NCBI GenBank assembly: GCA_902635945.1
Contig: CACPPU010000001.1
Location: 211,891-275,890, forward strand
Direction: 5' to 3'
DNA: 64,000 nt
From: an uncultured Candidatus Actinomarina sp.
Lineage (GTDB): Bacteria > Actinomycetota > Acidimicrobiia > Actinomarinales > Actinomarinaceae
Shown here piece by piece: positions 2,295 through 60,621 of the stretch. The first letter of the stretch is position 1. Each line of letters opens with the position of its first letter. Position numbers and translations under genes: made by a program. The notes beneath the pieces are model-generated. The model did not search any database, had not been told where the DNA came from, and worked only from the letters and a program-made list of their open reading frames with translations.

Positions 2295-3728
2295 TTAATT
2301 ATTATCTTTAACTTTTATAAAAAATCCAACAATTAAAATTGCAACCATGTATCCAATAAGCATTAATGCAAAAGTTAGGGAAAAAGAGCCCATGCTCAAT
2401 AATTCCTGTTGAAGATTTGAGAATTCACTATCTGGAGAGACTATCAATATTCTTATAAACAGCCACAAACCAAGCAAAAAAGAAAGCATTGGAAAAATTT
2501 TGTAAAACCCTTTTGAATCCTTTAATGACTCAACTAGTTCATTTCCTCCACCTGGTAGAGCTTTAAGTAAAACTCCTTCAATGCACATTAAATAACTAAT
2601 TGCGGCAATAGCAGTCAAGACACTTGAGTTAAGAATATATGGGACAGATGTTAGGTAGAAAAATCCAAAACCAACCGCACTTAAAGAAATTGAAGAATAA
2701 AACTTTGGTGAAAGTGTACTAACAGGTCTTTCGCTTATTATGTAACTTGTCGCTATAAATCCAAAAATAAACCCAATAGGCATAGCAAAATATATAAAAG
2801 CAAGAGTTGAGACTAAAGCAAATAATATAGCTTGTGGCGCCCACTTAAATTTCACAGTTTGGTTAAGGAATTGGCTTTCAATAATACCCTCAATACCCTC
2901 ATAAAAGAAAGTAACTGACAGTAACCCAACAAAAGCTGCAATAAACACCGCTAAGTTTTCTAAATCAAGCACCAAAGATGCTCCCTCTTCAACATACCCG
3001 ATTAGAAATGCAGTCATAAATAAAGCAAAAAGTATCTTAATAAAGTTAACAACTCTAGATGTGCCAGAAACATCTCTCTCACTAAAGAAGAACTTTACCT
3101 TGTTTTCAGAGAGAACTTTGTTGAACCATTCCTGTACTAATAAAACTAAATAAAAAAGAATAACTATTGCAGTTGTGATGATAAAAGCAATACTATTTTT
3201 TTCCTGATCAGTTAAATCGATGTCTTCGAAGAGCGGTATGGAAGTTATAAGTTCGTTAGTAATTTCAATATCTAAAAAATTAGTACTTTCAACTATGGGA
3301 GGTGGAATTGTCGTAGTAGTTGTCGAGGTGGTGGTCGAAGAAGTAGTCGTAGTCTCAATCACCTTTGCTGTTAGAAGTGCAGAATTCTGATAAGTCTCTT
3401 TTACAAATTCAACGCACTTTACTGCATTACAGCTTTCATCTGTTTCATCAACGGCTTTAGTTATTTGAACAGTTAAGATAATCTTGACTTCATCTGGATA
3501 ACAACAGAGCTGCAATTCACCACTTTTGGAAGGTACTTGAAAAGCATAAATACTATCTAAATGTTGTATTTCTAAAAATATTTGATCATAATCTTCGTAC
3601 TGGATTAACCAAGAAACTTCAATACTTTCATCTTCTAGTCTGTCTACTTCGATTGAGATATTGTCTTCGTCGACAGTGCTAAATATTAGAAAAAAACAAC
3701 ATAGTGAGAAAATAATTTTTAATTTCAT
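2295..3728 (-). CDS. Unknown polytopic membrane protein: signal peptide, ~130 aa Cys-containing ectodomain, Thr/Ser-rich stalk, ~8 TM helices
   Basis: The 477 aa ORF has an N-terminal MKLKIIFSLCCFFLIFS signal and the stalk TTTTSSTTTSTTTTTIPPP, followed by repeated hydrophobic helices. Its start overlaps the TetR stop (ATGA at 3725..3728). I recognise no family. Confidence 0.6.
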   Translation of the reverse strand: MKLKIIFSLCCFFLIFSTVDEDNISIEVDRLEDESIEVSWLIQYEDYDQIFLEIQHLDSIYAFQVPSKSGELQLCCYPDEVKIILTVQITKAVDETDESCNAVKCVEFVKETYQNSALLTAKVIETTTTSSTTTSTTTTTIPPPIVESTNFLDIEITNELITSIPLFEDIDLTDQEKNSIAFIITTAIVILFYLVLLVQEWFNKVLSENKVKFFFSERDVSGTSRVVNFIKILFALFMTAFLIGYVEEGASLVLDLENLAVFIAAFVGLLSVTFFYEGIEGIIESQFLNQTVKFKWAPQAILFALVSTLAFIYFAMPIGFIFGFIATSYIISERPVSTLSPKFYSSISLSAVGFGFFYLTSVPYILNSSVLTAIAAISYLMCIEGVLLKALPGGGNELVESLKDSKGFYKIFPMLSFLLGLWLFIRILIVSPDSEFSNLQQELLSMGSFSLTFALMLIGYMVAILIVGFFIKVKDNN

Positions 3729-4366
3729 TGATTTCCTTGAACAGCAAGACCTTGCTCTAAAGCCAAAGATGTTTCATTAAGGAACCATTCATCTGTAAAT
3801 GATGACCAAAAACTAGATTCACTGCTAAATCGCATCCACATAAATAAGCAACCGTTAAAATTGCGAATGGTATTTAATGCCAATTTCTTTGCATCAATAG
3901 ATTGATGATCTTTAATGTAATCATTGCAAAGATTAAGGAGTACATCAAAAGGTTCATTAGATATCCAATTACCACTTGAAACTATTTCATTTATATTAAA
4001 GAACATGTAACGAGCAGCAGCTCCTAACTGTATAACTGCCTCAGCTTGCAATTCTATAAATTTATTAATTCTTAATTTAGGATCTTCAACAGACTTAAAA
4101 TATTCTACTAGTTCTTTCTCAACTTCTTGAAAGGCTGAATTAAATATAGCACCGTAAACATCAACCATATTATTTGGGAAATGATTGTAAGCAGTTGCTA
4201 CAGATGTGCCAGCATTTTTTGCAATCATTGAGACATTTATTTTTTTCTTATCTAAATCAGGATCTTGGAGTAGTATTATTGCACTATTTATTAATTTTAA
4301 TTGAGAATCATCATAAATTGTTTTTTGACGAGCAGACCTACCGTCAACTTTTTTTTCGTCTTTCAT
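3725..4366 (-). CDS. TetR-family transcriptional regulator
   Basis: N-terminal HTH SMIAKNAGTSVATAYNHFPNN in a ~210 aa all-helical protein. Its start is 5 nt after the giant gene's stop. Confidence 0.85.
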   Translation of the reverse strand: MKDEKKVDGRSARQKTIYDDSQLKLINSAIILLQDPDLDKKKINVSMIAKNAGTSVATAYNHFPNNMVDVYGAIFNSAFQEVEKELVEYFKSVEDPKLRINKFIELQAEAVIQLGAAARYMFFNINEIVSSGNWISNEPFDVLLNLCNDYIKDHQSIDAKKLALNTIRNFNGCLFMWMRFSSESSFWSSFTDEWFLNETSLALEQGLAVQGNQ

Positions 4367-4371
4367 TGTTT

Positions 4372-7300
4372 CTAACTTATTGCTTCTATTTTTGTAAGTA
4401 TACCTGAAACAATAAGTCTTTCTTTTGCTGAATATTTAGGATGGCATGTTGTTAAAGTTAAACGATCGTCTCCTCTATCAAACAAAACATACTCTCCACC
4501 TACAGCTTCAACAACATCAATGCTATCAACCTGATAATGGAAAGTTTTTGAATCAACTGTTAGTAGAACAGTATCTCCAATATTCACTGCATCCAAATCA
4601 CCAAAAGGTGCTCCATATGTAGTCCTATGTCCAGCAATTCCTACGTTTCCACCTGTCCCAGGTAATGCCGTGCTTGTATAGTGCCCAGGACCAAGCTCCA
4701 ATGTGTTTTCATTTGTTCCAGCTAAGACGTACTGTTGAACATTTATCGAAGAAATTTCAAGGTAACCAAATATCTGAGGTTCACCACCATCAGAAGTAAT
4801 GTTTTCTTCTGGAAGAACTTGTTCAATGAAGCTATCAAAGATTGGAGTGTCATTAAAAAGCTCCCTCAAATTTATAAAGCTACTTTCAGATGCAAAAACT
4901 TCTAAATTATTCTCAAAATTTTGATCTCCACTATAAATTGCTGCTAGCTTTTCTTGTGCTGCTTCTTGCTTAGAATTTGTTAGATACATCTCGTTAAATG
5001 CATAACCAGAAATCAATAAGCCTGAAAATATTAAAAGAATAGAAACCCCTGTTAATATTTTTGCAAAACCCCTATTGCTTTTTTTTAGTTTTGCCTTTTT
5101 TGATGTATCAGTATTGACTGCGACATTTTTGATTTGATTGTCTTCTAAAATCTCATCATTAAATTTAAATTCAATTTTATCTGATGCAATGAGTTGTAAT
5201 ATATTTTCTAATTCTGTCCTTGATATAGTTTCTTTTTTTGATGATTTTTCTTCAATATTTTGGACTGATGAGATAAGATTTAAGACTTCATTATTTAAAT
5301 TATCAATTATTTCATTTTGATTTTTTGAATAAAGACCCTTGTGTAAATATGGATTTACTTTATTAAAGTTTATGAGTACATCTACGCTTTCTTTAACTAA
5401 AAACTCAATTTTAGATTTTAGAACATAAATATTTTGATATAGTGAATCCATAGAATCTGAAGAAGGAACTTTAGTTATCAATCTTTTTTTTCTATATCTT
5501 GTAAAAAGAAATAACCCTGTAAAGAAGGATGCTATTCCTCCTATTCCAAAGTAATTTAAATTGAATCCTGTATTAGCAAGTACAGTTGGTGTTTCTCCTA
5601 ACTGATCTTCAATGTAGTAGTACTGAACCAAATAGTCTTTGTCTTCAACGTAATTATTATCGGTATCAAAATCCCATGCAACATAGTCATTACCTTCATC
5701 ATTTGTAAATGCAACATTGTCAGTATCAATTAACTCAACTTTCACATTTGATACAACCGCGTTACCACTCTCTGACGTACCTAATGCTTGGAGAGTGTGT
5801 ATGCCTGGTTCTAAGTTAGGAGTTGGAAGGCTGCCAACAATATTACCATTAGAGTCTGTTTGTAAAATTCCAACAAATGTTGGTTCAGAAAACATATATA
5901 CTTCAACAAAAGATTCTGGCTCAAATCCCGATGCTTCAATAGAAATCATTCCATCAAGCTCACCTTTAATAATTGCATCCGGTTGTGTAGAAATTTGTTC
6001 AATAACTTGTGGTGGCAAGAACGAGGCATTTGTTAAAGTTACCACTTCGTTAGACACTACTTCCTCTTCATCACAACCAATCGTACAAGTTAATCCAATT
6101 GATAAGGATACTTCATCATTTGATATCTGAACTTCAGATACATCTTCGATATCTACCTTTGTACTAGCATCCACTACATTGTTTACAAGAACACTTGATT
6201 TTTGAGTTAAAGCCTCTTCTATAGGGCCTAGCGTCGTTGGTGGACTTGAATCTTGTCCACCAACAACAAGTGATGAAATATCATCAGTGAGAGATAGCTC
6301 TCCTAATACTGTAGTCGTGGTTGTCGACACAGATAATTCATCACTTAATACTGGACCTCTTAAATTTTCAGAAACAGAGTCTGCTCTTAATACTGGAATT
6401 GTTGTGGTAGTAGTTGTCGCTTCTTTCAAACAGTTTGTTTTCTTTTTAAATTTTCCAACACTCTTATTTGAACCCAAAGCATCTGTAGTAGTTATTCTTG
6501 CCTTATATCTTGCACCTTCAGGAACACCAGAAATTGTGGTGATGGACACAGAAGAGCCGGCAGGAATATTGTATGTATTTTCAGTAACTTTTCTATTATT
6601 TACAAATATTTTTACTTTAAATACAGCAGAGACATTGGATCTTCTATTGTTCATGGACATACCATAATTAGCTCCACCGCCCTCTTGACAGTTTCTTTGA
6701 TTAAAAATTACTGGAAGAAACACATTAGGTGGTTCTTCTGGAATAGTAGTTGTAGTTGTAGTTGTTGTCGTAGTTGTTGTAGTAGTAGTAGTAGTTAATA
6801 CAGTTGATGTAGTTGTAGTTGTTTGTTCTACGATTATACATGAAACTTCAGAACTCGTTGACTGTGTTTCAGCAACCATATTCGTGTACACCCCGTCTGT
6901 AAATGAATCCGTAATTTGCCAAGTGATTGTAGATCCTTCAGGAACTGAAACTGTTAATGATGTATCTGTGGCAAATGAGGCAACTGTTAAATTAGCACTT
7001 AAAGTTGTATATGAACCGCTATCAATCTTATATTCAACCTTTACATAAATCGCAGCGCCCTCGCCACTAGTTATAGAGAGAGTGGAAATCTTGGCATCAT
7101 TAGCACAAGCGGCAAAAGAAGATGAGATGGTTGAAGCTGGATCACAGTCTACTGCATCAGAGGTAGATTGAGTTTCAGCAGACATGTTAGTAAAGTCACC
7201 GGAAGTAAAGCTGTCAGTTATTCTCCAGGTAATTGTTGAACCGTCTGCAACAACATATTGAGTAGCCGTGTTAGTACTATTTGCTGCAACTGAGAGATTA

Positions 7301-10300
7301 GATGTGTGAGTTGAGTATGAGCCACCGTCGACACTGTATTCGATTTTATAGTAAACAGTGTCTGAAGATTCTGTATTATTTATTGTTAATGTTGATATTT
7401 TAGAGCCACTAGCACAACTTCCAAACTCTGAAGAGAATGTAGAGTCAGGATCACAATCTGCCGCTGAGGATTCTGCTTGTGTTTCCTCACTCATATTTGT
7501 GAAATTATTTGAAGTAAAACTGTCTGTAATTTTCCACGTAATTGTTGAACCATGCGGTACTGATGCTGTAACAGACGTATCAGTAGCACCTATGGCTACA
7601 GAGACATTTCCATTTGCTGTTTGGTAAGAACCATCATCAACTTTGTATTCAACTTTATAATATGTAGTCAGACCAGTCAAAGTATGTGCTGTTCCACCTG
7701 AAGCGACAGCAGTTAAATCAATAGCTGTTCCAGCAAGAGCGTTTAAATTTGAGGTCGCAAGCTTGACTCTATTAGCTGTTCCAGATTTGATTATGTAATA
7801 AGTTGTTCCATCAGTTAAGTTTCCTTGTGCTCCGGAGCTGCCTTGTGTATAAATTACAGCATCACCTGTTGCAACTTTAGAATATTCTGAAGATGGTATA
7901 ACTATTTCATCAGTTGATGTAATTAAAACTGAAGAATCTGTTAAATCTAGGCTTCCTGTAGAAATTTCATTATTTGTAATACTCAAAGTCGCAGTTGCTG
8001 TTCCACTTGCACAAGAACCAAATGAATTAGAAAATACTGAGTTAGGATCACAATCTACTGCTGCAGTAGCAGCTTGTTGCTCATAAGATGCGCCAGAAAA
8101 GTTACCGTCTGTACTACTATCTTTGAACCTCCAAGTAATTGTAGATCCATGAGGAACTGAAGCAGACAAAGATGTATTTGTTACACCCTGTCCGACAGAA
8201 AGGTTTGAAGCAGCAGTTACATACGATCCACTATCAATTTTGTATTCAACTAAGTAATAAGCTGTAGCACTCGTATCATTTGTGATGCTAGCTGTATTAG
8301 TTTTTGCACCATTTGCACATGCACTAAATGATGAAGCAAATGTTGTAGCAACTGCACAGTCAACTGTAGAACTTTGTGTCTGTGTCTCCGCACTCATATT
8401 TGTAAAATTCCCAGAAGTAAAAGAGTCGGTTACTCTCCATGTAATTGTTGAACCATCAGCAACATTTTGAGAAACAGATGTATCAGTAGCTGCTGCAGAA
8501 ATTGATAAGTTAGCAGAAGCAGTTTGATAAGATCCATCGTCTATTTTGTACTCTACTTTTACATAAACTGTTGCACTCTCATTGTTTGTAATTTCAATTG
8601 TTGACGAACCTTGTGTTCCAGAACAAGCAATATCTGGCGGATTCTTAACTGTAATATTTGGATCACAATCTACAGCATCACTGGCGTCCATTGTCTCATC
8701 ACTCATGTTTGTAAAATCATTTGAAGTAAAGCTATCGGTTATTCTCCAAGTAATTGTTGAGCCATCAGGAACTGATGCTGTTTGTGATGTGTCCGTGCTG
8801 CTTCCACTTACTGATAAATTACCATTTGCGGTTTGAAATGAACCACTATCAATTTGGTACTCCACTTTGTAATAAACTGTTGCACTTTCAGTATTTTGAA
8901 TACTTAAGGTTGAAGTCTTTGCGCCAGCAGAACATGCACTTAATGATGTGGAGAGATTAGTTTCTGGGTCACAGTCTGCTGTGGCACCTGACTGGGTTTC
9001 TACACTCATATTTGTAAAATCAGCTGATGAAAAACTGTCTGTAATTCTCCAGGTTATAGTTTGCCCATCTGCTACCGAGGCAGTTTGTGAAGTATCGGTG
9101 CTTCCAGCAGTAACTGTAAGGTTCGCATTAGTGGTTTGATATGATCCACTATCAATTTTGTACTCAACTTTATAATATGCAGTTGCACCAGTCAAAGTAT
9201 GTGCAGTACCGCCAGAGGCAACCGCAGTTAAATCAATGGCTGTTCCGGCCATAGCGTTTGCATACGTTGTTGCTAGTTTTACTCTATTTGATGTACCAGA
9301 TTTAATTAAAAAGTACGTAGTACCGTCTGTTAAGTTTGTTTGAGCTCCAGAGCTACCTTGAGCATATGTTACTAGTTCACCGGTGACAGCTGTACCGTAG
9401 GCATCAGAAGAGACCACAATTTCTTCAGTTGAAGTAATTAGTACTGAAGAGCTTGTTAAATCAAGATTGCCTGATGCAAATTCATTATTTTTAATACTAA
9501 TAGTGGAGGTTTGTGCTCCACTAGAACAAGATCCAAATGAGGATGAAATAACTGATGACGGATCACAATCTACTGTTGCGCTTGCTGACATTGTTGTATA
9601 TGAATCTGTAAACGACCCACTTGTTGAAGAGGTTTTATATCTCCATGTTATAGCTTCGCCATGTGCTACGGAATGGGTCAGAGTCTCAGAACTGTTTGCA
9701 GAAACTGATTGGTTTGATGCCTTGTTAGTCCAACTACTTCCACCATCAGTTGAGTAATCAACGTAGAAATAGACAGCTACATTTGCAGAGGCGCTATTTA
9801 ACAATGTTAATGTATTTGTTCTTGCTCCAGCAGAACAGGTAGTAGTAAAGGTTTGCTCAGCACTTGGATCTACATTTTCACAATCTACAGTTGCAAGAAG
9901 AGTGCTTCCAGCTCCTGCACCATCTGTGTTTTGGGTTGTAATGTAAGAGCCTGAAGAAGGGTTAGATGTATCAAATCTAAATTGAAAATAAACTTCTGTA
10001 GTGTCTGCCTGTGCTGACCCTAGGGTGAATATGGTAAAAGCACCTGCAGTTATGGTACTTCCATCTGAAAGATCTGTCCATGTGCCTCCACTACCTATTT
10101 TGTACTGAACATCAACAACTTTAGTTTCATTTGTTCCATTAGTGATAGTTACTTTAGGTGTTGAACTTGTACCTGAACATGTTCCAGCGTCTACAGTGGC
10201 AGTTACGTATCCTGTTACACAATCAACTGTATTGGTAAGTGTGCTACCGCTACCAGCTGAGCTTGTGGTTGTAACATACGAACCTGAAGAAGGGTTAGAT

Positions 10301-11958
10301 GTGCCAGCCCTGACACGCCATGAAATAACTGAGGTATGTGCTTGAGCAGATATAGTGTATGTTTCCGTATTACCTGCAGTAATTCCATTTCCATCTTGTG
10401 TTGTGGTCCAAGAACCACTGCCAATCTTGTACTGAACGTCAAAATAATTAGTTGTGTTTCCTGTATTTTCAATCGCTATTGATGGAACAGCTGCACCACT
10501 TGAACAAGAACCAAGAGAACTTGTAGCAGTCCAAGACGTAGTTGGGCAATTAATTGTTAATGAGAGAGTAATGCCAGTATGATCCCGTGATGATTGGACA
10601 TTATTTGGATCTGAACTATCACTAATCTCTACATAATCCCCAGAACTTGGATTTGATGTCCCTTCTCTGTATCGAAATTGGACTTGAGTTCCGTGATCTT
10701 GAGTATATGAATCTCCAAAAATATGCGTACTTCCTGCACTGAGCGATTGACCATTTAAAGTTGTTACCCAGGAACTCCATCCAGACCCGGTATTTACACG
10801 TCTTTGCAGATCGTAGTACATAGTGGTTTGATAAGCAGTTACATCAACCCTTACATCAGATTGACCATTAGAACAGCTTCCCTGATATGGATCACTTACT
10901 ACGAGATTTCCAGCTGGTGGCTCAACAGGTGCAGTTCCACAACCAGCACCATCAGTATTGCTAGAGCTGTTGAAACTATCACTTGTTAATACAAACTCAT
11001 TTGTGTTGTTTCCTGTAGTTGTATCGTTTGCATAATCATACTTCCATAATCTTCCATCATCGTTTTCTAAGAAATAGACAACTCCATCTCCCATAGTCAT
11101 AGCTGCACCAGAGTTAGAACTCATTGAACTACCCACATTGTTTGCTCTTTGAGTCAAAGCCACACTGATTGATTCATTGCTAGCACCTACATTGGTATGT
11201 GAGACAGTTGCACCAAGTAAGTCATTTGTATTTGAGTTAAAAGCTATGAAGTCGTGCGTTGTGCTATTTTCAATCCATGCAAAGTCTTTTGCCTTATTGG
11301 AAGTCCATGTACTACCAGAGGATATTGATACGCTGATAACTTTATAAGAACCATCTGCATTAAGTCTTATTGCTTTATTGTTTCCAGCAAAGAAACCTTT
11401 TGATGTAAAAATATATTTATAAGTAGTTCCACCAGATTCATATTCATAGTAGGTAGCAGCATTATTATCACCAGTACCAAGATTGTTAGTCACAGAAGAT
11501 ATATGTGTTGCTGTACCAGAGCCGCTAGCGTTGTAATTTAATTTATAGAAATAAACCTGGCTTGTATTTGTCCTTTTTAAAATCGCATACATGTCTCCAT
11601 CTTTAGTGATGCTTAAGGAGTTCAATTCATCAATTTTATTGTGTGACCAGGAACTAAAACTCTCGATTGTTGAAGTTGAAAATGTACTACTTGAATTATT
11701 TGATCCGCGTAAGATACTTAATGTTCCATTACTCCAGGTACTTTGAAAGACATATCCTGCCCCATCAGAGTTTGAGCATGAAAACTCTCCGCTAGCTAAC
11801 ACTGGTTCTGGATCTATTGTCTCAATTGTTGCAAAAGCTATTGAAAAGATAAGCATGAATGCCATGAATGTATTGAAAACTTTATGTAGAAATGGTCGAA
11901 TAGTACCAGAGCGTCTAAAACGCATAGCAAAAATTATGTTGATGAAATATTTAATCAT
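4372..11958 (-). CDS. Giant (2528 aa) secreted repeat protein with an internal LANTG cell-wall sorting signal, fused in frame to a C-terminal class E-like sortase domain
   Basis: A single uninterrupted ORF. It has an N-terminal signal/anchor, an N-terminal globular region and 11 tandem ~100 aa two-Cys modules. These are followed by poly-Thr linkers, LANTG plus a hydrophobic stretch plus RYRKKR, a second TM helix, and then sortase motifs GIAGHRTT, TLTTCHP and KERLIV. Confidence 0.9.
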   Translation of the reverse strand: MIKYFINIIFAMRFRRSGTIRPFLHKVFNTFMAFMLIFSIAFATIETIDPEPVLASGEFSCSNSDGAGYVFQSTWSNGTLSILRGSNNSSSTFSTSTIESFSSWSHNKIDELNSLSITKDGDMYAILKRTNTSQVYFYKLNYNASGSGTATHISSVTNNLGTGDNNAATYYEYESGGTTYKYIFTSKGFFAGNNKAIRLNADGSYKVISVSISSGSTWTSNKAKDFAWIENSTTHDFIAFNSNTNDLLGATVSHTNVGASNESISVALTQRANNVGSSMSSNSGAAMTMGDGVVYFLENDDGRLWKYDYANDTTTGNNTNEFVLTSDSFNSSSNTDGAGCGTAPVEPPAGNLVVSDPYQGSCSNGQSDVRVDVTAYQTTMYYDLQRRVNTGSGWSSWVTTLNGQSLSAGSTHIFGDSYTQDHGTQVQFRYREGTSNPSSGDYVEISDSSDPNNVQSSRDHTGITLSLTINCPTTSWTATSSLGSCSSGAAVPSIAIENTGNTTNYFDVQYKIGSGSWTTTQDGNGITAGNTETYTISAQAHTSVISWRVRAGTSNPSSGSYVTTTSSAGSGSTLTNTVDCVTGYVTATVDAGTCSGTSSTPKVTITNGTNETKVVDVQYKIGSGGTWTDLSDGSTITAGAFTIFTLGSAQADTTEVYFQFRFDTSNPSSGSYITTQNTDGAGAGSTLLATVDCENVDPSAEQTFTTTCSAGARTNTLTLLNSASANVAVYFYVDYSTDGGSSWTNKASNQSVSANSSETLTHSVAHGEAITWRYKTSSTSGSFTDSYTTMSASATVDCDPSSVISSSFGSCSSGAQTSTISIKNNEFASGNLDLTSSSVLITSTEEIVVSSDAYGTAVTGELVTYAQGSSGAQTNLTDGTTYFLIKSGTSNRVKLATTYANAMAGTAIDLTAVASGGTAHTLTGATAYYKVEYKIDSGSYQTTNANLTVTAGSTDTSQTASVADGQTITWRITDSFSSADFTNMSVETQSGATADCDPETNLSTSLSACSAGAKTSTLSIQNTESATVYYKVEYQIDSGSFQTANGNLSVSGSSTDTSQTASVPDGSTITWRITDSFTSNDFTNMSDETMDASDAVDCDPNITVKNPPDIACSGTQGSSTIEITNNESATVYVKVEYKIDDGSYQTASANLSISAAATDTSVSQNVADGSTITWRVTDSFTSGNFTNMSAETQTQSSTVDCAVATTFASSFSACANGAKTNTASITNDTSATAYYLVEYKIDSGSYVTAASNLSVGQGVTNTSLSASVPHGSTITWRFKDSSTDGNFSGASYEQQAATAAVDCDPNSVFSNSFGSCASGTATATLSITNNEISTGSLDLTDSSVLITSTDEIVIPSSEYSKVATGDAVIYTQGSSGAQGNLTDGTTYYIIKSGTANRVKLATSNLNALAGTAIDLTAVASGGTAHTLTGLTTYYKVEYKVDDGSYQTANGNVSVAIGATDTSVTASVPHGSTITWKITDSFTSNNFTNMSEETQAESSAADCDPDSTFSSEFGSCASGSKISTLTINNTESSDTVYYKIEYSVDGGSYSTHTSNLSVAANSTNTATQYVVADGSTITWRITDSFTSGDFTNMSAETQSTSDAVDCDPASTISSSFAACANDAKISTLSITSGEGAAIYVKVEYKIDSGSYTTLSANLTVASFATDTSLTVSVPEGSTITWQITDSFTDGVYTNMVAETQSTSSEVSCIIVEQTTTTTSTVLTTTTTTTTTTTTTTTTTIPEEPPNVFLPVIFNQRNCQEGGGANYGMSMNNRRSNVSAVFKVKIFVNNRKVTENTYNIPAGSSVSITTISGVPEGARYKARITTTDALGSNKSVGKFKKKTNCLKEATTTTTTIPVLRADSVSENLRGPVLSDELSVSTTTTTVLGELSLTDDISSLVVGGQDSSPPTTLGPIEEALTQKSSVLVNNVVDASTKVDIEDVSEVQISNDEVSLSIGLTCTIGCDEEEVVSNEVVTLTNASFLPPQVIEQISTQPDAIIKGELDGMISIEASGFEPESFVEVYMFSEPTFVGILQTDSNGNIVGSLPTPNLEPGIHTLQALGTSESGNAVVSNVKVELIDTDNVAFTNDEGNDYVAWDFDTDNNYVEDKDYLVQYYYIEDQLGETPTVLANTGFNLNYFGIGGIASFFTGLFLFTRYRKKRLITKVPSSDSMDSLYQNIYVLKSKIEFLVKESVDVLINFNKVNPYLHKGLYSKNQNEIIDNLNNEVLNLISSVQNIEEKSSKKETISRTELENILQLIASDKIEFKFNDEILEDNQIKNVAVNTDTSKKAKLKKSNRGFAKILTGVSILLIFSGLLISGYAFNEMYLTNSKQEAAQEKLAAIYSGDQNFENNLEVFASESSFINLRELFNDTPIFDSFIEQVLPEENITSDGGEPQIFGYLEISSINVQQYVLAGTNENTLELGPGHYTSTALPGTGGNVGIAGHRTTYGAPFGDLDAVNIGDTVLLTVDSKTFHYQVDSIDVVEAVGGEYVLFDRGDDRLTLTTCHPKYSAKERLIVSGILTKIEAIS
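4375..4785 (-). other. Sortase catalytic domain (class E-like) at the C-terminus of the giant ORF
   Basis: LGPGHYTSTALPGTGGNVGIAGHRTTYGAPFGDL...DRLTLTTCHPKYSAKERLIVSG. The Cys codon is at 4444..4446. The TM helix GFAKILTGVSILLIFSGLLISGYAF (about 4996..5070) precedes it. Confidence 0.85.
5482..5580 (-). other. Cell-wall sorting signal: LANTG (5566..5580), hydrophobic segment, RYRKKR tail
   Basis: aa 2127-2159: LANTG-FNLNYFGIGGIASFFTGLFLFT-RYRKKR. I checked the frame against the ORF stop. Confidence 0.85.
6745..6795 (-). repeat. 17 consecutive Thr codons (mixed ACT/ACA/ACG) forming a poly-Thr linker within the giant gene
   Basis: The plus strand reads agt/tgt/cgt triplets in frame, and the protein reads VLTTTTTTTTTTTTTTTTTIPEEPP. 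Confidence 0.9.
6840..10920 (-). repeat. Coding tandem repeat array: 11 Ig-like ~100 aa modules, including a 1515 bp higher-order duplication
   Basis: Modules are bounded by ..(V/A)DC(D)P.. and share the core YYKVEYKIDSGSY.T...NLSV...TDTS.TASV.DGSTITWRITDSFTS..FTNMS.ETQ. Near-identical DNA lies at 7676..7980 and 9191..9495, exactly 1515 bp apart. Boundaries are approximate. Confidence 0.85.
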
Positions 11959-59586: not shown

Positions 59587-60249
59587 TTATAAAGAAAGTA
59601 TTAGTGTTCCAGAAGCTCCTAATGAAACGATGAGCGACAAATAACTTAATCCTGTACTGGCCATAACTCCTGTATATGATTTTTCTTGTAAAGATTTAAA
59701 TGATGCATATGAAAGTATCCCTGCTGAAATAAATAAAAAGACAATTACATTATTTAATAGTTCATTACCCACTATATTAAAAAATACTGTAGAACTTTCA
59801 TATATATTTGTAAGGACAGACAATGAGAGAATAAAAGAAAGATACATAGAAAACTTTGCTATGTTTTTCATGCCTTCTCGATTAATTGTAGGATCAACAA
59901 GGAACCAATGACCAATCATCATGGACGAAAATACAGCAGATATTAATAAAATAGGAACGAGATTTTTAACATTATTGATACCGATGACATTTAATGATGA
60001 AACAGTGAAAGATATAAAAGCAAGCACTAGATAATAAAATTTTTCATTCCTACTATATGCAATCAAATAAAATGCCAAAAAAAATACCCCTATTTGGGAA
60101 AAATTATTAAAAATCAAAAAAATATTTGCTGAAATAATAGCAACAAATAATATACTAAATCCTTTTTTGGGATTAGTAGAACGCACTATATACATCAAAA
60201 AAGGTATACAAAATGTTAAAAAAATGTAGGTGAATTCACTCAATTGCAT
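59587..60249 (-). CDS. Hypothetical polytopic membrane protein
   Basis: A 220 aa ORF with ~7 hydrophobic helices and no recognised motif. Confidence 0.45.
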   Translation of the reverse strand: MQLSEFTYIFLTFCIPFLMYIVRSTNPKKGFSILFVAIISANIFLIFNNFSQIGVFFLAFYLIAYSRNEKFYYLVLAFISFTVSSLNVIGINNVKNLVPILLISAVFSSMMIGHWFLVDPTINREGMKNIAKFSMYLSFILSLSVLTNIYESSTVFFNIVGNELLNNVIVFLFISAGILSYASFKSLQEKSYTGVMASTGLSYLSLIVSLGASGTLILSL

Positions 60250-60621
60250 ATGTTATTTACAATAATAGAAGTGTTTAAAAATATAATAAAAAATAATAGC
60301 AATCAAGCTTTAACGATTTCAATTCTACTCATGTTTTCAATAAGAATTGTTTCTAAAGAATCATCGCAATTATTTTCCCCAGTGTTAGTTTTTTCATTTA
60401 TTTCATATTTTCTAATGTTTACCATTGCATTAGAGGCACTCAAAAAAAATAAAATAATAGGTATTTACCTTTTTATGACGATTTTTTTTATTCCTCCTAA
60501 TATACTCCCAGAGTACAAAGGTCTATTGTTTCCTATTACATATCTCTCTCATTTCACTTATCTAGGTTATTTAATTTCATTAGAATTATTTAATAAGTGG
60601 AAAAAAAGTCATGAACTATGA
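60250..60621 (+). CDS. Hypothetical small membrane protein (uncertain)
   Basis: A hydrophobic ORF of ~123 aa from the ATG at 60250. The AT-rich sequence could produce it by chance. Confidence 0.3.
   Translation: MLFTIIEVFKNIIKNNSNQALTISILLMFSIRIVSKESSQLFSPVLVFSFISYFLMFTIALEALKKNKIIGIYLFMTIFFIPPNILPEYKGLLFPITYLSHFTYLGYLISLELFNKWKKSHEL

What the first reader, a model, noticed from the sequence alone, without database searches (positions are those of the whole stretch)
4375..5580. A complete LAxTG sorting signal reads through, with no stop, into its own sortase: substrate and enzyme in one polypeptide
Seen in sequence: aa 2127-2159 of the 2528 aa ORF are LANTG, FNLNYFGIGGIASFFTGLFLFT and RYRKKR. 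This is a textbook cell-wall sorting signal, which normally forms the extreme C-terminus of a protein. Here the frame continues for 369 more codons. These comprise a ~140 aa Lys/Glu/Asn-rich segment, a basic patch (KKAKLKKSNR) and a second TM helix (GFAKILTGVSILLIFSGLLISGYAF, about 4996..5070). A sortase domain follows, with His (GIAGHRTT), Cys (TLTTCHP, codon 4444..4446) and Arg (KERLIV). Established knowledge: actinobacterial class E sortases recognise LAxTG, and sortases are encoded as separate genes, usually not even next to their substrates. Inference: basic residues flank both cytoplasmic ends of the loop, which predicts a membrane hairpin. That topology places both the LANTG motif and the catalytic domain on the outer face. 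The protein could therefore process itself in cis, or process a neighbouring copy. Cleavage would release the ~2130 aa adhesin for wall attachment and leave behind a two-TM sortase. In DNA this AT-rich, 397 stop-free codons after the motif are unlikely to occur by chance. An internal Met (M2170, 5449..5451) exists but has no recognisable SD. I found no other LAxTG substrate in this window.
Basis: partly seen in the sequence, partly recalled or inferred. Interest (0 to 1): 0.9.

Follow-up and report, generated by a model that had tools for sequence, protein, structure and literature searches.

The report
Surface protein fused to its sortase
In a clade of tiny, abundant marine actinobacteria, a giant cell-surface protein and the sortase enzyme that should cut it and fasten it to the cell wall are encoded as one polypeptide, an arrangement I could not find described anywhere.

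Summary
ORF 4372..11958 (-) encodes 2528 aa: signal peptide, ~2070-aa repeat-rich passenger, LANTG + hydrophobic helix + RYRKKR, a 137-aa loop, a second TM helix, and a class-E-like sortase (Pfam E=1.6e-28; His/Cys/Arg and the class E Tyr present).

An A8 run inside the RYRKKR codons made a homopolymer artefact plausible, since ±1 A gives an immediate stop. That is refuted. Eleven independent Ca. Actinomarinales loci, including single-cell genomes with different junction DNA, read through in frame. So do 61 protein-cluster representatives down to ~35% identity, with [LM]AxTG kept in 60 of 61.

A sister clade keeps the two genes separate. There a giant substrate ends in a canonical sorting signal. 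Its stop overlaps the start (TAATG/TAGTG/TGATG) of a stand-alone two-TM hairpin sortase, which is the architecture the fused protein would leave after LANT|G cleavage. Where that sortase loses the Ala-recognising Tyr, its substrate motif changes from xAxTG to IPxTG.

Best reading: a self-contained wall-anchoring module in which each adhesin carries its own sortase, acting in cis or on a neighbouring copy. Cleavage itself is inferred, not shown. It is a new variant of a known system, and I found no report of a natural fusion.

The parts
4372..11958 (-). Single ORF of 2528 aa (stop codon 4372..4374): passenger + internal sorting signal + loop + sortase
   Evidence: Complete orthologous fused ORFs: L005 2207..11239 (3011 aa stop-to-stop) and P0146 (1471 aa).
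11794..11958 (-). N-terminal export signal (aa 1-55): basic RFRR, hydrophobic core aa 27-45, likely cleavage near VLA|SGEF
   Evidence: Hydropathy scan. The mature N-terminus '[AS]GEFSC.NSDG' is shared with P0146, which has a classical signal peptide. The cleavage site is inferred.
5581..11793 (-). Passenger (aa 56-2126): about ten or more ~100-aa modules marked by close Cys pairs, with ITWRITD-like motifs; two longer inserts; poly-Thr linkers (a T17 run at aa 1722-1738); 30% Ser+Thr
   Evidence: No Pfam family match above threshold and no PDB sequence match.
5566..5580 (-). LANTG sorting motif (aa 2127-2131); predicted scissile bond T2130|G2131
   Evidence: L, A, T and G are invariant in 13 divergent sequences. 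Counts in 61 fused sequences: LAATG 33, LAETG 11, LANTG 9, LADTG 4, MADTG 3, LAATC 1.
5500..5565 (-). TM1 (aa 2132-2153), the hydrophobic segment of the sorting signal, oriented out-to-in
   Evidence: Mean Kyte-Doolittle hydropathy 1.22. Helix in the AF2 model.
5482..5499 (-). Basic tail RYRKKR (aa 2154-2159); contains the A8 run at 5484..5491
   Evidence: Net charge +4.1 on average over the 10 residues after TM1 in 61 sequences.
5071..5481 (-). Cytoplasmic loop (aa 2160-2296): a folded helix-strand-helix-helix-strand domain of unknown function, ending in the basic patch KKAKLKKSNR (5071..5100)
   Evidence: AF2 model pLDDT 78, pTM 0.71. No Pfam hit and no PDB fold match, best E 3.7. Homologous to part of the loop of the stand-alone sister-clade sortase.
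4996..5070 (-). TM2 (aa 2297-2321), oriented in-to-out; equivalent to the N-terminal membrane anchor of ordinary class E sortases
   Evidence: Mean Kyte-Doolittle hydropathy 1.73. NCBIfam class_E_sortase aligns from aa 2305. Outgroup sortases match from about here onward.
4771..4995 (-). Exoplasmic linker (aa 2322-2396, about 75 aa) between TM2 and the catalytic domain
   Evidence: Low pLDDT and partly helical. Length 72-77 aa in 61 sequences.
4375..4770 (-). Sortase catalytic domain (aa 2397-2528): class E Tyr2427 (4678..4680), His2444 (4627..4629), Cys2505 (4444..4446), Arg2514 (4417..4419)
   Evidence: Pfam PF04203 E=1.6e-28. TIGR01076 86.5 bits, above its 39.35 cut-off. Foldseek hit to class E 5go6, TM 0.79, rmsd 1.5. 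Conservation across 79 sequences: His345 and Tyr328 (429-aa query numbering) invariant, Cys406 and Arg415 kept in at least 90%; all four invariant in the 13-sequence alignment.

Best explanation
This is a natural substrate-sortase fusion that works as a self-contained wall-anchoring module.

Shown:
- One ORF encodes, in order: an export signal, a ~2070-aa repeat passenger, a complete LAxTG / hydrophobic / basic sorting signal, a folded ~135-aa loop domain, a second TM helix, a ~75-aa linker and a class-E-like sortase with an intact Tyr/His/Cys/Arg set.
- This order is conserved throughout one clade of Ca. Actinomarinales.

Inferred:
1. The passenger is exported by Sec.
2. TM1 stops transfer and the loop stays in the cytoplasm, with basic residues on both inner ends.
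3. TM2 re-inserts and exports the sortase domain. LANTG and the active site then sit on the outer face, a few nanometres apart.
4. Cys2505 attacks the T2130-G2131 bond of its own chain or of a neighbouring copy.
5. The acyl-enzyme is resolved by a peptidoglycan or lipid II amine, and the passenger becomes covalently wall-bound.
6. A 398-aa two-TM hairpin sortase stays in the membrane.

The design gives 1:1 enzyme-to-substrate stoichiometry and co-localisation. The sister clade achieves the same by translational coupling of two separate genes.

The fusion is topologically 'free'. The sorting-signal tail and the N-terminus of a class E sortase are both cytoplasmic, so joining them in frame leaves every part on its proper side.
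For: 1. Real and ancient.
- In-frame read-through occurs at 11 independent loci: window, L001-L007, L090, L092. These include Illumina single-cell genomes whose junction codons differ and carry A5 rather than A8.
- 61 cluster representatives from ENA, JGI, Tara and NCBI span passenger end, loop and sortase at 97% down to 35% identity.
- The fused clade is monophyletic in 90 of 100 bootstraps.

2. The motif is under selection. L, A, T and G are invariant across 13 divergent sequences while the flanks diverge. 60 of 61 representatives keep [LM]AxTG.

3. The topology is conserved.

4. The enzyme looks competent and of the right specificity.
- His and the class E Tyr (SrtE1 Y229 in 'GHY', PMC5148588) are invariant, and Cys and Arg are kept in at least 90% of 79 aligned sequences.
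- Class E is the best NCBIfam class and gives the best PDB sequence matches. The sortase fold is confirmed.

5. Sister clade as a natural control.
- A giant substrate of 3100-3700 aa ends in [FYI][AP]xTG-TM-R.AYRF*.
- Its stop overlaps the start of a 541-555-aa sortase built as TM-loop-TM-sortase.
- That is the architecture predicted for the post-cleavage fragment.

6. Enzyme and substrate co-vary. Sortases reading GPG[HY]Y pair with xAxTG, and those reading GPGYI pair with IP[YF]TG.

7. Feasibility. Engineered SrtA-LPETG-protein fusions self-cleave (Mao 2004, as described in PMC10334657).

8. No other sortase or sorting-signal protein lies in the window. Each Actinomarinales genome in the scan gave one locus.
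Against: - No experimental evidence of cleavage or wall linkage exists for any member.
- AlphaFold does not dock LANTG into the active site; that segment has pLDDT below 50.
- The class E HMM score is below NCBI's cut-off (121 bits against 160).
- Cell-wall chemistry of this order is unknown (PMC7771536).
- Whether this is the only substrate or the only sortase in the genome could not be tested, because only about 6% of a genome was available.
- The Tyr/Ala to Ile/Pro covariation is probably a single evolutionary event.
- The polarity of the change (fusion or fission) is unresolved, because the two clades are sisters.
Confidence: 0.6

Rival explanations
1. Sequencing or assembly artefact. A one-base error in the A8 homopolymer at 5484..5491, or a chimeric contig, joined a normal substrate gene to a separate sortase gene.
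For: A7 gives RYRKKD* and A9 gives RYRKKKIDN*. Either would restore a textbook C-terminal sorting signal. Some database entries are called as ~360-aa stand-alone sortases (P0009, P0010, P0073, P0075).
Against: - L004-L007 have only A5 runs and different codons at the junction, yet all read through.
- 61 independent cluster representatives read through.
- A complete 3011-aa ORF exists in a single-cell genome.
- The stand-alone calls that were examined are artefacts: N-gaps for P0009 (L002) and P0056 (L092), a contig end for P0073 (L091), and an upstream frameshift in an acidic low-complexity run for P0075 (L090).
- Third-codon-position bias continues across the junction.
Confidence: 0.01
2. The fusion is real but the motif is not cleaved. 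The protein stays a permanently membrane-anchored giant, and its sortase domain serves other substrates or none.
For: Cleavage is untested. AF2 leaves LANTG disordered and undocked. A two-TM anchor would be enough to hold the passenger at the surface.
Against: - LAxTG is invariant across 13 divergent sequences amid divergent flanks, and 60 of 61 representatives keep [LM]AxTG. That is hard to explain without recognition by the enzyme.
- The sister clade keeps a canonical, necessarily cleavable sorting signal on the orthologous giant protein.
- Motif and specificity residue co-vary.
- No other substrate was seen in the window.
Confidence: 0.1
3. The sortase cleaves LANT|G, but the outcome is not wall anchoring. 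The result is hydrolytic release (shedding) of the passenger, or transfer to another acceptor such as a Lys of another subunit, as in pilus polymerisation by class C sortases.
For: - Class C sortases are the second-best NCBIfam and PDB matches.
- The wall structure of the order is unknown.
- Sortases hydrolyse their acyl-enzyme when no nucleophile is available; this rests on established knowledge, and engineered self-cleaving fusions work this way.
Against: - Class E is the best-scoring class.
- The class E Tyr and LAxTG motifs match housekeeping wall-anchoring enzymes.
- No pilin-type accessory genes lie in the conserved neighbourhood.
- I did not test for a pilin motif in the passenger.
Confidence: 0.15
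4. The functional sortase is made mainly from an internal start (M2170 or TTG2160), so the co-linear reading frame is incidental.
For: In-frame ATG at 5449..5451 and TTG at 5479..5481. A protein starting there would still have a valid N-in topology.
Against: - With no stop codon, ribosomes translating the passenger must continue into the sortase.
- The Met is not conserved; other lineages read LDNIY, LEDIY or IENIY.
- There is no excess of promoter-like sites (6 found against 9.3 expected) and no terminator at the junction.
- The stand-alone sister-clade sortase starts with its own TM helix, not with the loop.
Confidence: 0.07

Closest known systems
Class E (housekeeping) sortases of Actinobacteria: S. 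coelicolor SrtE1/SrtE2, C. diphtheriae SrtF, S. avermitilis and T. fusca SrtE
   Same: - Best-matching class by HMM and by PDB sequence search, with the same fold.
- His/Cys/Arg triad and the 'GHY' Tyr proposed to read Ala at P3 of LAxTG.
- Membrane anchor N-terminal to the catalytic domain.
- SrtE1 also has a functionally required cytoplasmic N-terminal extension (PMC5148588).
   Different: - Those enzymes are separate proteins with many substrates. This one is the C-terminal part of its presumed substrate.
- It scores below the NCBIfam class E cut-off (121 bits against 160).
- Its cytoplasmic domain matches no family or fold in Pfam or the PDB.
Canonical LPXTG/LAXTG cell-wall sorting signal
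   Same: Motif, hydrophobic segment of about 22 aa and Arg/Lys tail in the canonical order and spacing.
   Different: By definition the signal ends the protein. Here 369 residues follow it. The orthologue in the sister clade does end canonically.
Stand-alone two-TM 'hairpin' sortase (with RecA_C insert) of the sister Actinomarinales clade (P0121-P0141; L008, L009, L083-L088)
   Same: Orthologous locus and synteny, homologous loop domain, TM2, linker and sortase. Its giant substrate lies immediately upstream. Its architecture equals the predicted post-cleavage fragment of the fused protein.
   Different: - Separate gene with a stop/start overlap.
- Own N-terminal TM helix.
- About 170 extra loop residues, including a RecA C-terminal domain.
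- This family is itself undescribed as far as I could find.
Dedicated sortase-single substrate gene pairs (for example class GN 'marine sortase' TIGR03784 with its adjacent target; recalled from NCBIfam/TIGRFAM descriptions)
   Same: One sortase genetically tied to one adjacent substrate.
   Different: Those are two genes in Gram-negative bacteria with a different motif. TIGR03784 scores far below its cut-off here (63 bits against 158).
Engineered self-cleaving sortase fusions (His6-SrtA-LPETG-protein; Mao 2004)
   Same: Enzyme and recognition motif in one chain, and self-cleavage at Thr|Gly is demonstrated (PMC10334657).
   Different: Those constructs are artificial, soluble and ordered the other way round (enzyme, motif, cargo). 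The cargo leaves as the Gly-started fragment, and there is no membrane hairpin and no wall transfer.
Type Va autotransporters (analogy only)
   Same: Passenger and its own surface-display or processing machinery in one polypeptide, often with cleavage between the two.
   Different: Unrelated proteins, outer-membrane beta-barrel, different chemistry.
SafA-sortase pairing and the SafA-sortase fusion in Bifidobacterium dentium (PMC9282373)
   Same: An extra TM segment genetically or physically coupled to an actinobacterial class E sortase anchor. That paper uses the fusion as evidence of a functional link.
   Different: SafA is a 52-aa N-in/C-out protein with an FPW motif, fused at the sortase C-terminus. 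It is not a substrate.

Membership tests
Sortase superfamily (Pfam PF04203 / TIGR01076) | Profile match above the curated cut-off | tested here: met
   PF04203: 99.4 bits against cut-off 26.6, E=1.6e-28, aa 2400-2519. TIGR01076: 86.5 bits for the 429-aa module and 83.6 bits for the full protein, against cut-off 39.35.
Sortase superfamily (Pfam PF04203 / TIGR01076) | Catalytic His, Cys (TLxTC) and Arg | tested here: met
   H2444, C2505 and R2514 are present. All three are invariant in the 13-sequence alignment. Across 79 aligned sequences His is invariant and Cys and Arg are kept in at least 90%.
Sortase superfamily (Pfam PF04203 / TIGR01076) | Eight-stranded sortase beta-barrel fold | tested here: met
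   AF2 pLDDT 80-94 for the domain. Foldseek probability 1.00 to many sortases, e.g. 5go6 TM 0.79 at rmsd 1.5.
Class E sortase (NCBIfam NF033747) | HMM score above the curated cut-off (160 bits) | tested here: not met
   121.2 bits. It is the best of all class models (class C 99, SrtD 93, class D 77) but lies below the cut-off.
Class E sortase (NCBIfam NF033747) | Conserved Tyr in the beta3/beta4 loop (SrtE1 Y229, 'GHY'), proposed to select Ala at P3 | tested here: met
   GPGHY with Y2427, invariant in 79 sequences. Its position was identified from the SrtE1 primer sequences and text in PMC5148588 and from alignment to class E 5UUS and 5GO5.
Class E sortase (NCBIfam NF033747) | Cognate substrates carry LAxTG | tested here: met
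   The only candidate substrate is the protein's own LANTG. LA[AEND]TG occurs in 57 of 61 fused homologues. Actual cleavage cannot be tested with these tools.
Class E sortase (NCBIfam NF033747) | Stand-alone enzyme with a single N-terminal TM anchor | tested here: not met
   The enzyme is the C-terminal 230 aa of a 2528-aa ORF. Outgroup Acidimicrobiia enzymes match only TM2 plus the catalytic domain.
Cell-wall sorting signal (LPXTG-type) | Pentapeptide motif, then a ~20-aa hydrophobic segment, then a basic tail | tested here: met
   LANTG / FNLNYFGIGGIASFFTGLFLFT / RYRKKR, conserved in 61 sequences.
Cell-wall sorting signal (LPXTG-type) | Located at the extreme C-terminus | tested here: not met
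   369 residues follow in frame. The same holds at 11 loci.
Cell-wall sorting signal (LPXTG-type) | Cleaved between Thr and Gly and linked to peptidoglycan | not testable with these tools
   Needs biochemistry or proteomics.
Class GN 'marine' sortase (TIGR03784) | HMM score above the curated cut-off (158 bits) | tested here: not met
   63 bits.

The most novel reading that the evidence does not exclude
The fused protein is an obligate, essentially single-turnover 'auto-sortase'. Each giant adhesin is anchored in cis by the sortase it carries, much as autotransporters display themselves. The conserved cytoplasmic loop domain, held between TM1 and TM2, gates or positions that one reaction. TM1 may also shield the sortase anchor, as SafA does. 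This would be the first natural case of a sortase that is stoichiometric with, and physically part of, its substrate. It would also be a ready-made minimal self-anchoring module.
Probability: 0.25. Interest if true: 0.85.

Novelty: new variant of a known kind. Interest (0 to 1): 0.72.

Why it matters
Sortase and sorted protein have always been treated as two molecules that must find each other in the membrane. A conserved natural fusion changes that picture in several ways.
- It is 'Rosetta-stone' proof of a dedicated enzyme-substrate pair in an uncultured but abundant ocean lineage.
- It offers a simple system for asking whether sortases can act in cis, what the cytoplasmic extensions of class E sortases do, and how stoichiometry is controlled.
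- With the sister clade, it gives a natural fused-versus-split comparison. That comparison includes a Tyr-to-Ile / Ala-to-Pro co-change bearing on the proposed class E specificity rule.
- The ~400-aa C-terminal module could be a compact self-anchoring tag for surface display.
- It also matters for annotation. Gene callers and NCBI label fragments of this gene as 'class E sortase, partial', and several MAG bins carrying it are assigned to the wrong taxon.

Tried and rejected
- **Homopolymer or frameshift artefact at the A8 run.** Tested against 10 other loci and rejected.
- **Programmed slippage at the A8 run, to make both a canonical substrate and the fusion.** The run is not conserved (A5 in L004-L007). 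Early out-of-frame stops are expected in 32% GC DNA, where the stop probability is about 0.086 per codon. Not pursued.
- **'Stand-alone' ~360-aa sortase calls inside the fused clade.** Those examined (P0009, P0056, P0073, P0075) are explained by N-gaps, a contig end or an upstream frameshift.
- **Internal promoter or terminator at the junction.** None above background.
- **AlphaFold docking of LANTG into the active site.** The segment is disordered in the model, so this says nothing about cis versus trans.
- **Function of the loop domain.** No Pfam hit and no PDB fold match.
- **Function of the passenger.** No Pfam family match above threshold and no PDB sequence match.
- **Internal sorting signals in other long sortases.** Among the best 150 of 1.84 billion representatives, none occurs outside this family.
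- **Literature.** Six full-text searches found no natural sortase-substrate fusion and no mention of sortase in the Actinomarinales genome paper.
- **Polarity of the event.** The NJ tree makes the fused and split clades sisters, so the direction stays open.
- **First bootstrap output.** The support values printed were unusable because rooted clades were matched against unrooted replicates. They were recomputed as bipartitions.
Full report
**Observation**

The minus-strand ORF 4372..11958 encodes 2528 aa.
- LANTG, aa 2127-2131 (5566..5580)
- a 22-aa hydrophobic segment
- RYRKKR (5482..5499)
- a 137-aa K/N/E-rich stretch ending in KKAKLKKSNR
- TM2 (4996..5070)
- a sortase domain with H2444, C2505 (4444..4446) and R2514

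Pfam Sortase matches aa 2400-2519 at E=1.6e-28. At this base composition, 397 open codons have a chance probability of about 4e-16.

An A8 run (5484..5491) lies inside the RYRKKR codons. Deleting one A gives ...RYRKKD*, and adding one gives ...RYRKKKIDN*. A single homopolymer miscall could therefore have fused a perfectly ordinary substrate gene to a downstream sortase gene. This had to be settled with independent sequences.

**The fusion is real and conserved**

A search with the last 429 aa found dozens of proteins from ENA, JGI, Tara and NCBI that cover 99-100% of the query at 97% down to 33% identity. Two are named 'class E sortase, partial [Candidatus Actinomarina sp.]'. All those inspected read LA[NDAE]TG, hydrophobic segment and basic tail straight into loop, TM2 and sortase.

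In a 79-sequence alignment, 61 cluster representatives span passenger end, loop and sortase. Their motif counts are LAATG 33, LAETG 11, LANTG 9, LADTG 4, MADTG 3 and LAATC 1. In a 13-sequence alignment reaching 35% identity, L, A, T, G and the first tail Arg are invariant while their surroundings are not.

At the DNA level, Ca. Actinomarinales genomes all read through:
- MAG MED-G97 (L003) and single-cell genomes L004-L007.
- L005 holds a complete stop-to-stop ORF of 3011 aa, with LAATG at aa 2617 and the catalytic Cys at aa 2982.
- P0146 is a complete 1471-aa version with a classical signal peptide.

The A8 run is absent from L004-L007, which have A5 and other codons. That removes the artefact hypothesis.

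The shorter 'stand-alone' calls that I examined are trivially explained:
- L002 and L092 are scaffolds with N-gaps. In L002 both flanks of the gap read ...FTRYRKKRLVSA... .
- L091 starts at a contig end.
- L090 has a frameshift in an acidic low-complexity run upstream of an intact LAATG-to-sortase frame.

Other short hits are chimeric contigs. L001, a 236-kb contig, has three frameshifts in the passenger but an intact junction. Differences from L003, L002 and L001 are concentrated at third codon positions in the sorting signal, loop, TM2 linker and sortase alike.

**What the enzyme is**

- NCBIfam ranks class_E_sortase first at 121 bits, below its 160-bit cut-off. Class C follows at 99 bits. 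The general sortase model TIGR01076 passes.
- The best solved-structure sequence matches are class E enzymes 5UUS, 5GO5/5GO6 and 5CUW.
- The AF2 model has a confident sortase barrel, and Foldseek matches all sortase classes. Class E 5go6 gives TM 0.79 at rmsd 1.5.
- Kattke et al. (PMC5148588) proposed that the Tyr of SrtE1's '...VGHY229...' reads Ala at P3 of LAxTG. It corresponds to Y2427 in GPGHY, which is invariant in the alignment.

This is a divergent class-E-like sortase.

**Topology**

Across the 61 fused sequences, mean net charge is:
- -1.5 in the 15 residues up to the motif
- +4.1 in the 10 residues after TM1
- +5.3 in the 12 residues before TM2
- -0.8 in the 14 residues after TM2

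The TM2-to-sortase linker is 72-77 aa in all sequences, which by inference is ample to reach a motif five residues from the membrane.

The loop is not a mere spacer. Modelled alone, it folds as helix-strand-helix-helix-strand with pLDDT 78 and pTM 0.71. It has no Pfam match and no PDB fold match.

**The sister clade is split, and that is the most informative result**

This lineage is represented by L008, L009 and L083-L088. The sortase family P0121-P0141 is 541-555 aa, shares 47-93% identity with the L008 sortase used as query, and sits on contigs up to 867 kb. The same syntenic locus (hom-thrC-giant gene-...-SBF-rho-rpmE-prfA) holds two genes:
- The giant protein (3100-3700 aa) ends canonically in [FYI][AP]xTG, a TM segment and a short basic tail ending in YR[FY], followed by the stop codon.
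- The stop overlaps the next start (TAGTG, TAATG, TGATG), or directly abuts it in L087 and L088.
- The next gene encodes a sortase with its own N-terminal TM helix (M.YFF.YL.III.NI.AVL.VL-R.RRN), a long cytoplasmic loop, TM2, the linker and the catalytic domain.

That loop contains the same conserved domain as the window's loop, plus about 170 extra residues. The extra part includes a RecA C-terminal domain (PF21096, E=9e-18).

This stand-alone two-TM hairpin sortase has the architecture that LANT|G cleavage would leave behind in the fused protein. The stop/start overlap suggests near-stoichiometric co-translation.

On the TM2-plus-sortase region, bootstrap support out of 100 is 90 for the fused sequences as a clade, 100 for the split sequences as a clade, and 100 for the two together against other Acidimicrobiia. 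That indicates one fusion or fission event, with the fused state then kept through divergence to about 35% identity. Other Acidimicrobiia and Thermoleophilia match only TM2 plus the catalytic domain. Some have an LAxTG substrate directly upstream (L022, L043).

**Enzyme-substrate co-variation**

Sortases with Tyr at the class E position (GPGHY or GPGYY) are paired with xAxTG: LAxTG, MADTG, FADTG or YAVTG. The sub-lineage reading GPGYI is paired with IPYTG or IPFTG (L083, L085, L086). This is probably a single event. It is what the Tyr-reads-Ala model predicts, and it ties each sortase to the neighbouring or attached giant protein.

**Mechanism**

Shown: the architecture, its conservation, the motif and triad conservation, the topology signals and the split-clade counterpart.

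Inferred, in order:
1. Sec export of the passenger.
2. Stop-transfer at TM1.
3. Cytoplasmic loop.
4. Re-insertion at TM2.
5. Attack of Cys2505 on T2130-G2131, in cis or on a neighbouring copy.
6. Transfer to a wall amine.
7. Retention of a 398-aa hairpin sortase.

Engineered SrtA-LPETG-cargo chains self-cleave, so the chemistry is feasible within one chain (Mao 2004, via PMC10334657).

An inference on origin: a sorting-signal tail and the N-terminus of a class E sortase are both cytoplasmic. SrtE1 even has a required cytoplasmic extension. Loss of the stop between adjacent genes would therefore preserve topology. Reading through the stop in the split clade would instead give three TM helices and put the sortase on the wrong side, so the two states are not interconvertible by a point mutation.

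**Limits**

- No experiment exists for any member.
- AF2 leaves LANTG undocked.
- Cis versus trans, the acceptor, and whether this is the only substrate and only sortase of the genome are all open.
- The window holds no other sortase or sorting signal, but it is only about 6% of a genome.

**Novelty**

- Six full-text searches found no natural sortase-substrate fusion.
- The Actinomarinales genome paper does not mention sortase or LPXTG.
- An exhaustive scan of 1.84 billion representatives found the full-length module in a handful of clusters of this family only. None of the other best 150 sortases has an internal sorting signal.

The parts are known and the arrangement is new, so I rate it a new variant of a known kind. 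The organism is Ca. Actinomarinales by the 93% match to MED-G97 and by shared synteny.

Noticed in passing
L008:9437-11059 (aa 87-140 of the sortase); also L009, L083-L088, P0121-P0141: The stand-alone sister-clade sortase carries a confident RecA C-terminal domain (PF21096, E=9e-18) in its cytoplasmic loop between two TM helices. Precomputed Pfam shows it in about 20 cluster representatives. I have no explanation for a RecA_C domain inside a membrane sortase.
   Followed up: partly
L083:~9900-10001, L085 and L086 junctions, compared with L008, L009, L087: Where the sortase reads GPGYI instead of GPGYY or GPGHY (loss of the class E Tyr), the adjacent substrate motif is IP[YF]TG instead of xAxTG. 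This is a natural co-change matching the specificity model of PMC5148588.
   Followed up: partly
window 5484..5491: A8 homopolymer inside the RYRKKR codons. A ±1 slip gives a stop within 1-4 codons and would yield a canonical C-terminal sorting signal. It is present in close relatives (L001-L003) but not in L004-L007, so it is not a conserved device. Slippage in this species is not excluded.
   Followed up: yes
window 3725..4366 (-) and 2295..3728 (-): Directly downstream lie a weak TetR-like 213-aa protein and a 477-aa protein with signal peptide, ectodomain, Thr-rich linker and multi-TM C-terminus. Both are conserved in synteny with the giant gene in the fused lineages (L001, L005, L090-L092). 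Counterparts of 521-532 aa occur in the split lineages. They may be functionally linked.
   Followed up: no
window 5581..11793 (-): The passenger consists of about ten or more ~100-aa modules marked by close Cys pairs, with ITWRITD-like motifs, two longer repeated inserts and poly-Thr linkers including a T17 run. It has no Pfam family match above threshold and no PDB sequence match. Its length varies from ~1050 to ~3700 aa among relatives.
   Followed up: partly
window 4651..4665 (-), aa 2432-2436: The sortase domain itself contains 'LPGTG' in its beta3/beta4 loop (ALPGTGGNVGIAGHR). Most homologues read LPGSGGN, so this is a coincidental motif and not a sorting signal.
   Followed up: yes
P0003; L008 (PBXG01000025.1): Contigs carrying this Actinomarinales locus are deposited under 'Nitrosopumilaceae archaeon' and 'Gammaproteobacteria bacterium RS590'. 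These are likely MAG binning contamination; L008 has 35% GC and Actinomarinales synteny.
   Followed up: partly
L001:2736-10001: In a 236-kb JGI contig the giant gene is broken into four frames by three frameshifts, one of them a missing G in GAGGAG-GATGAT. These may be long-read indel errors or a decaying copy. The sorting-signal-to-sortase junction is intact.
   Followed up: partly
L087 and L088, ~2995-3005: In one split sub-lineage the substrate stop and the sortase ATG are adjacent in the same frame (...RRGYRF*MAYFF...). Stop read-through would create a three-TM chain with inverted sortase topology.
   Followed up: no
window 59590..60252 (-): A 221-aa ORF ends ...MASTG followed by a hydrophobic stretch but no basic tail. 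This is probably a chance resemblance in a membrane protein and not a sortase substrate.
   Followed up: no
window 4996..5010 (-), end of TM2: TM2 ends in a conserved small-residue pattern (G/I-Y-A, then polar residues) that resembles a signal-peptidase site. In Actinomyces, the class E sortase anchor is cleavable unless masked by SafA (PMC9282373). TM1 of the hairpin might play a similar shielding role. This is speculative.
   Followed up: no
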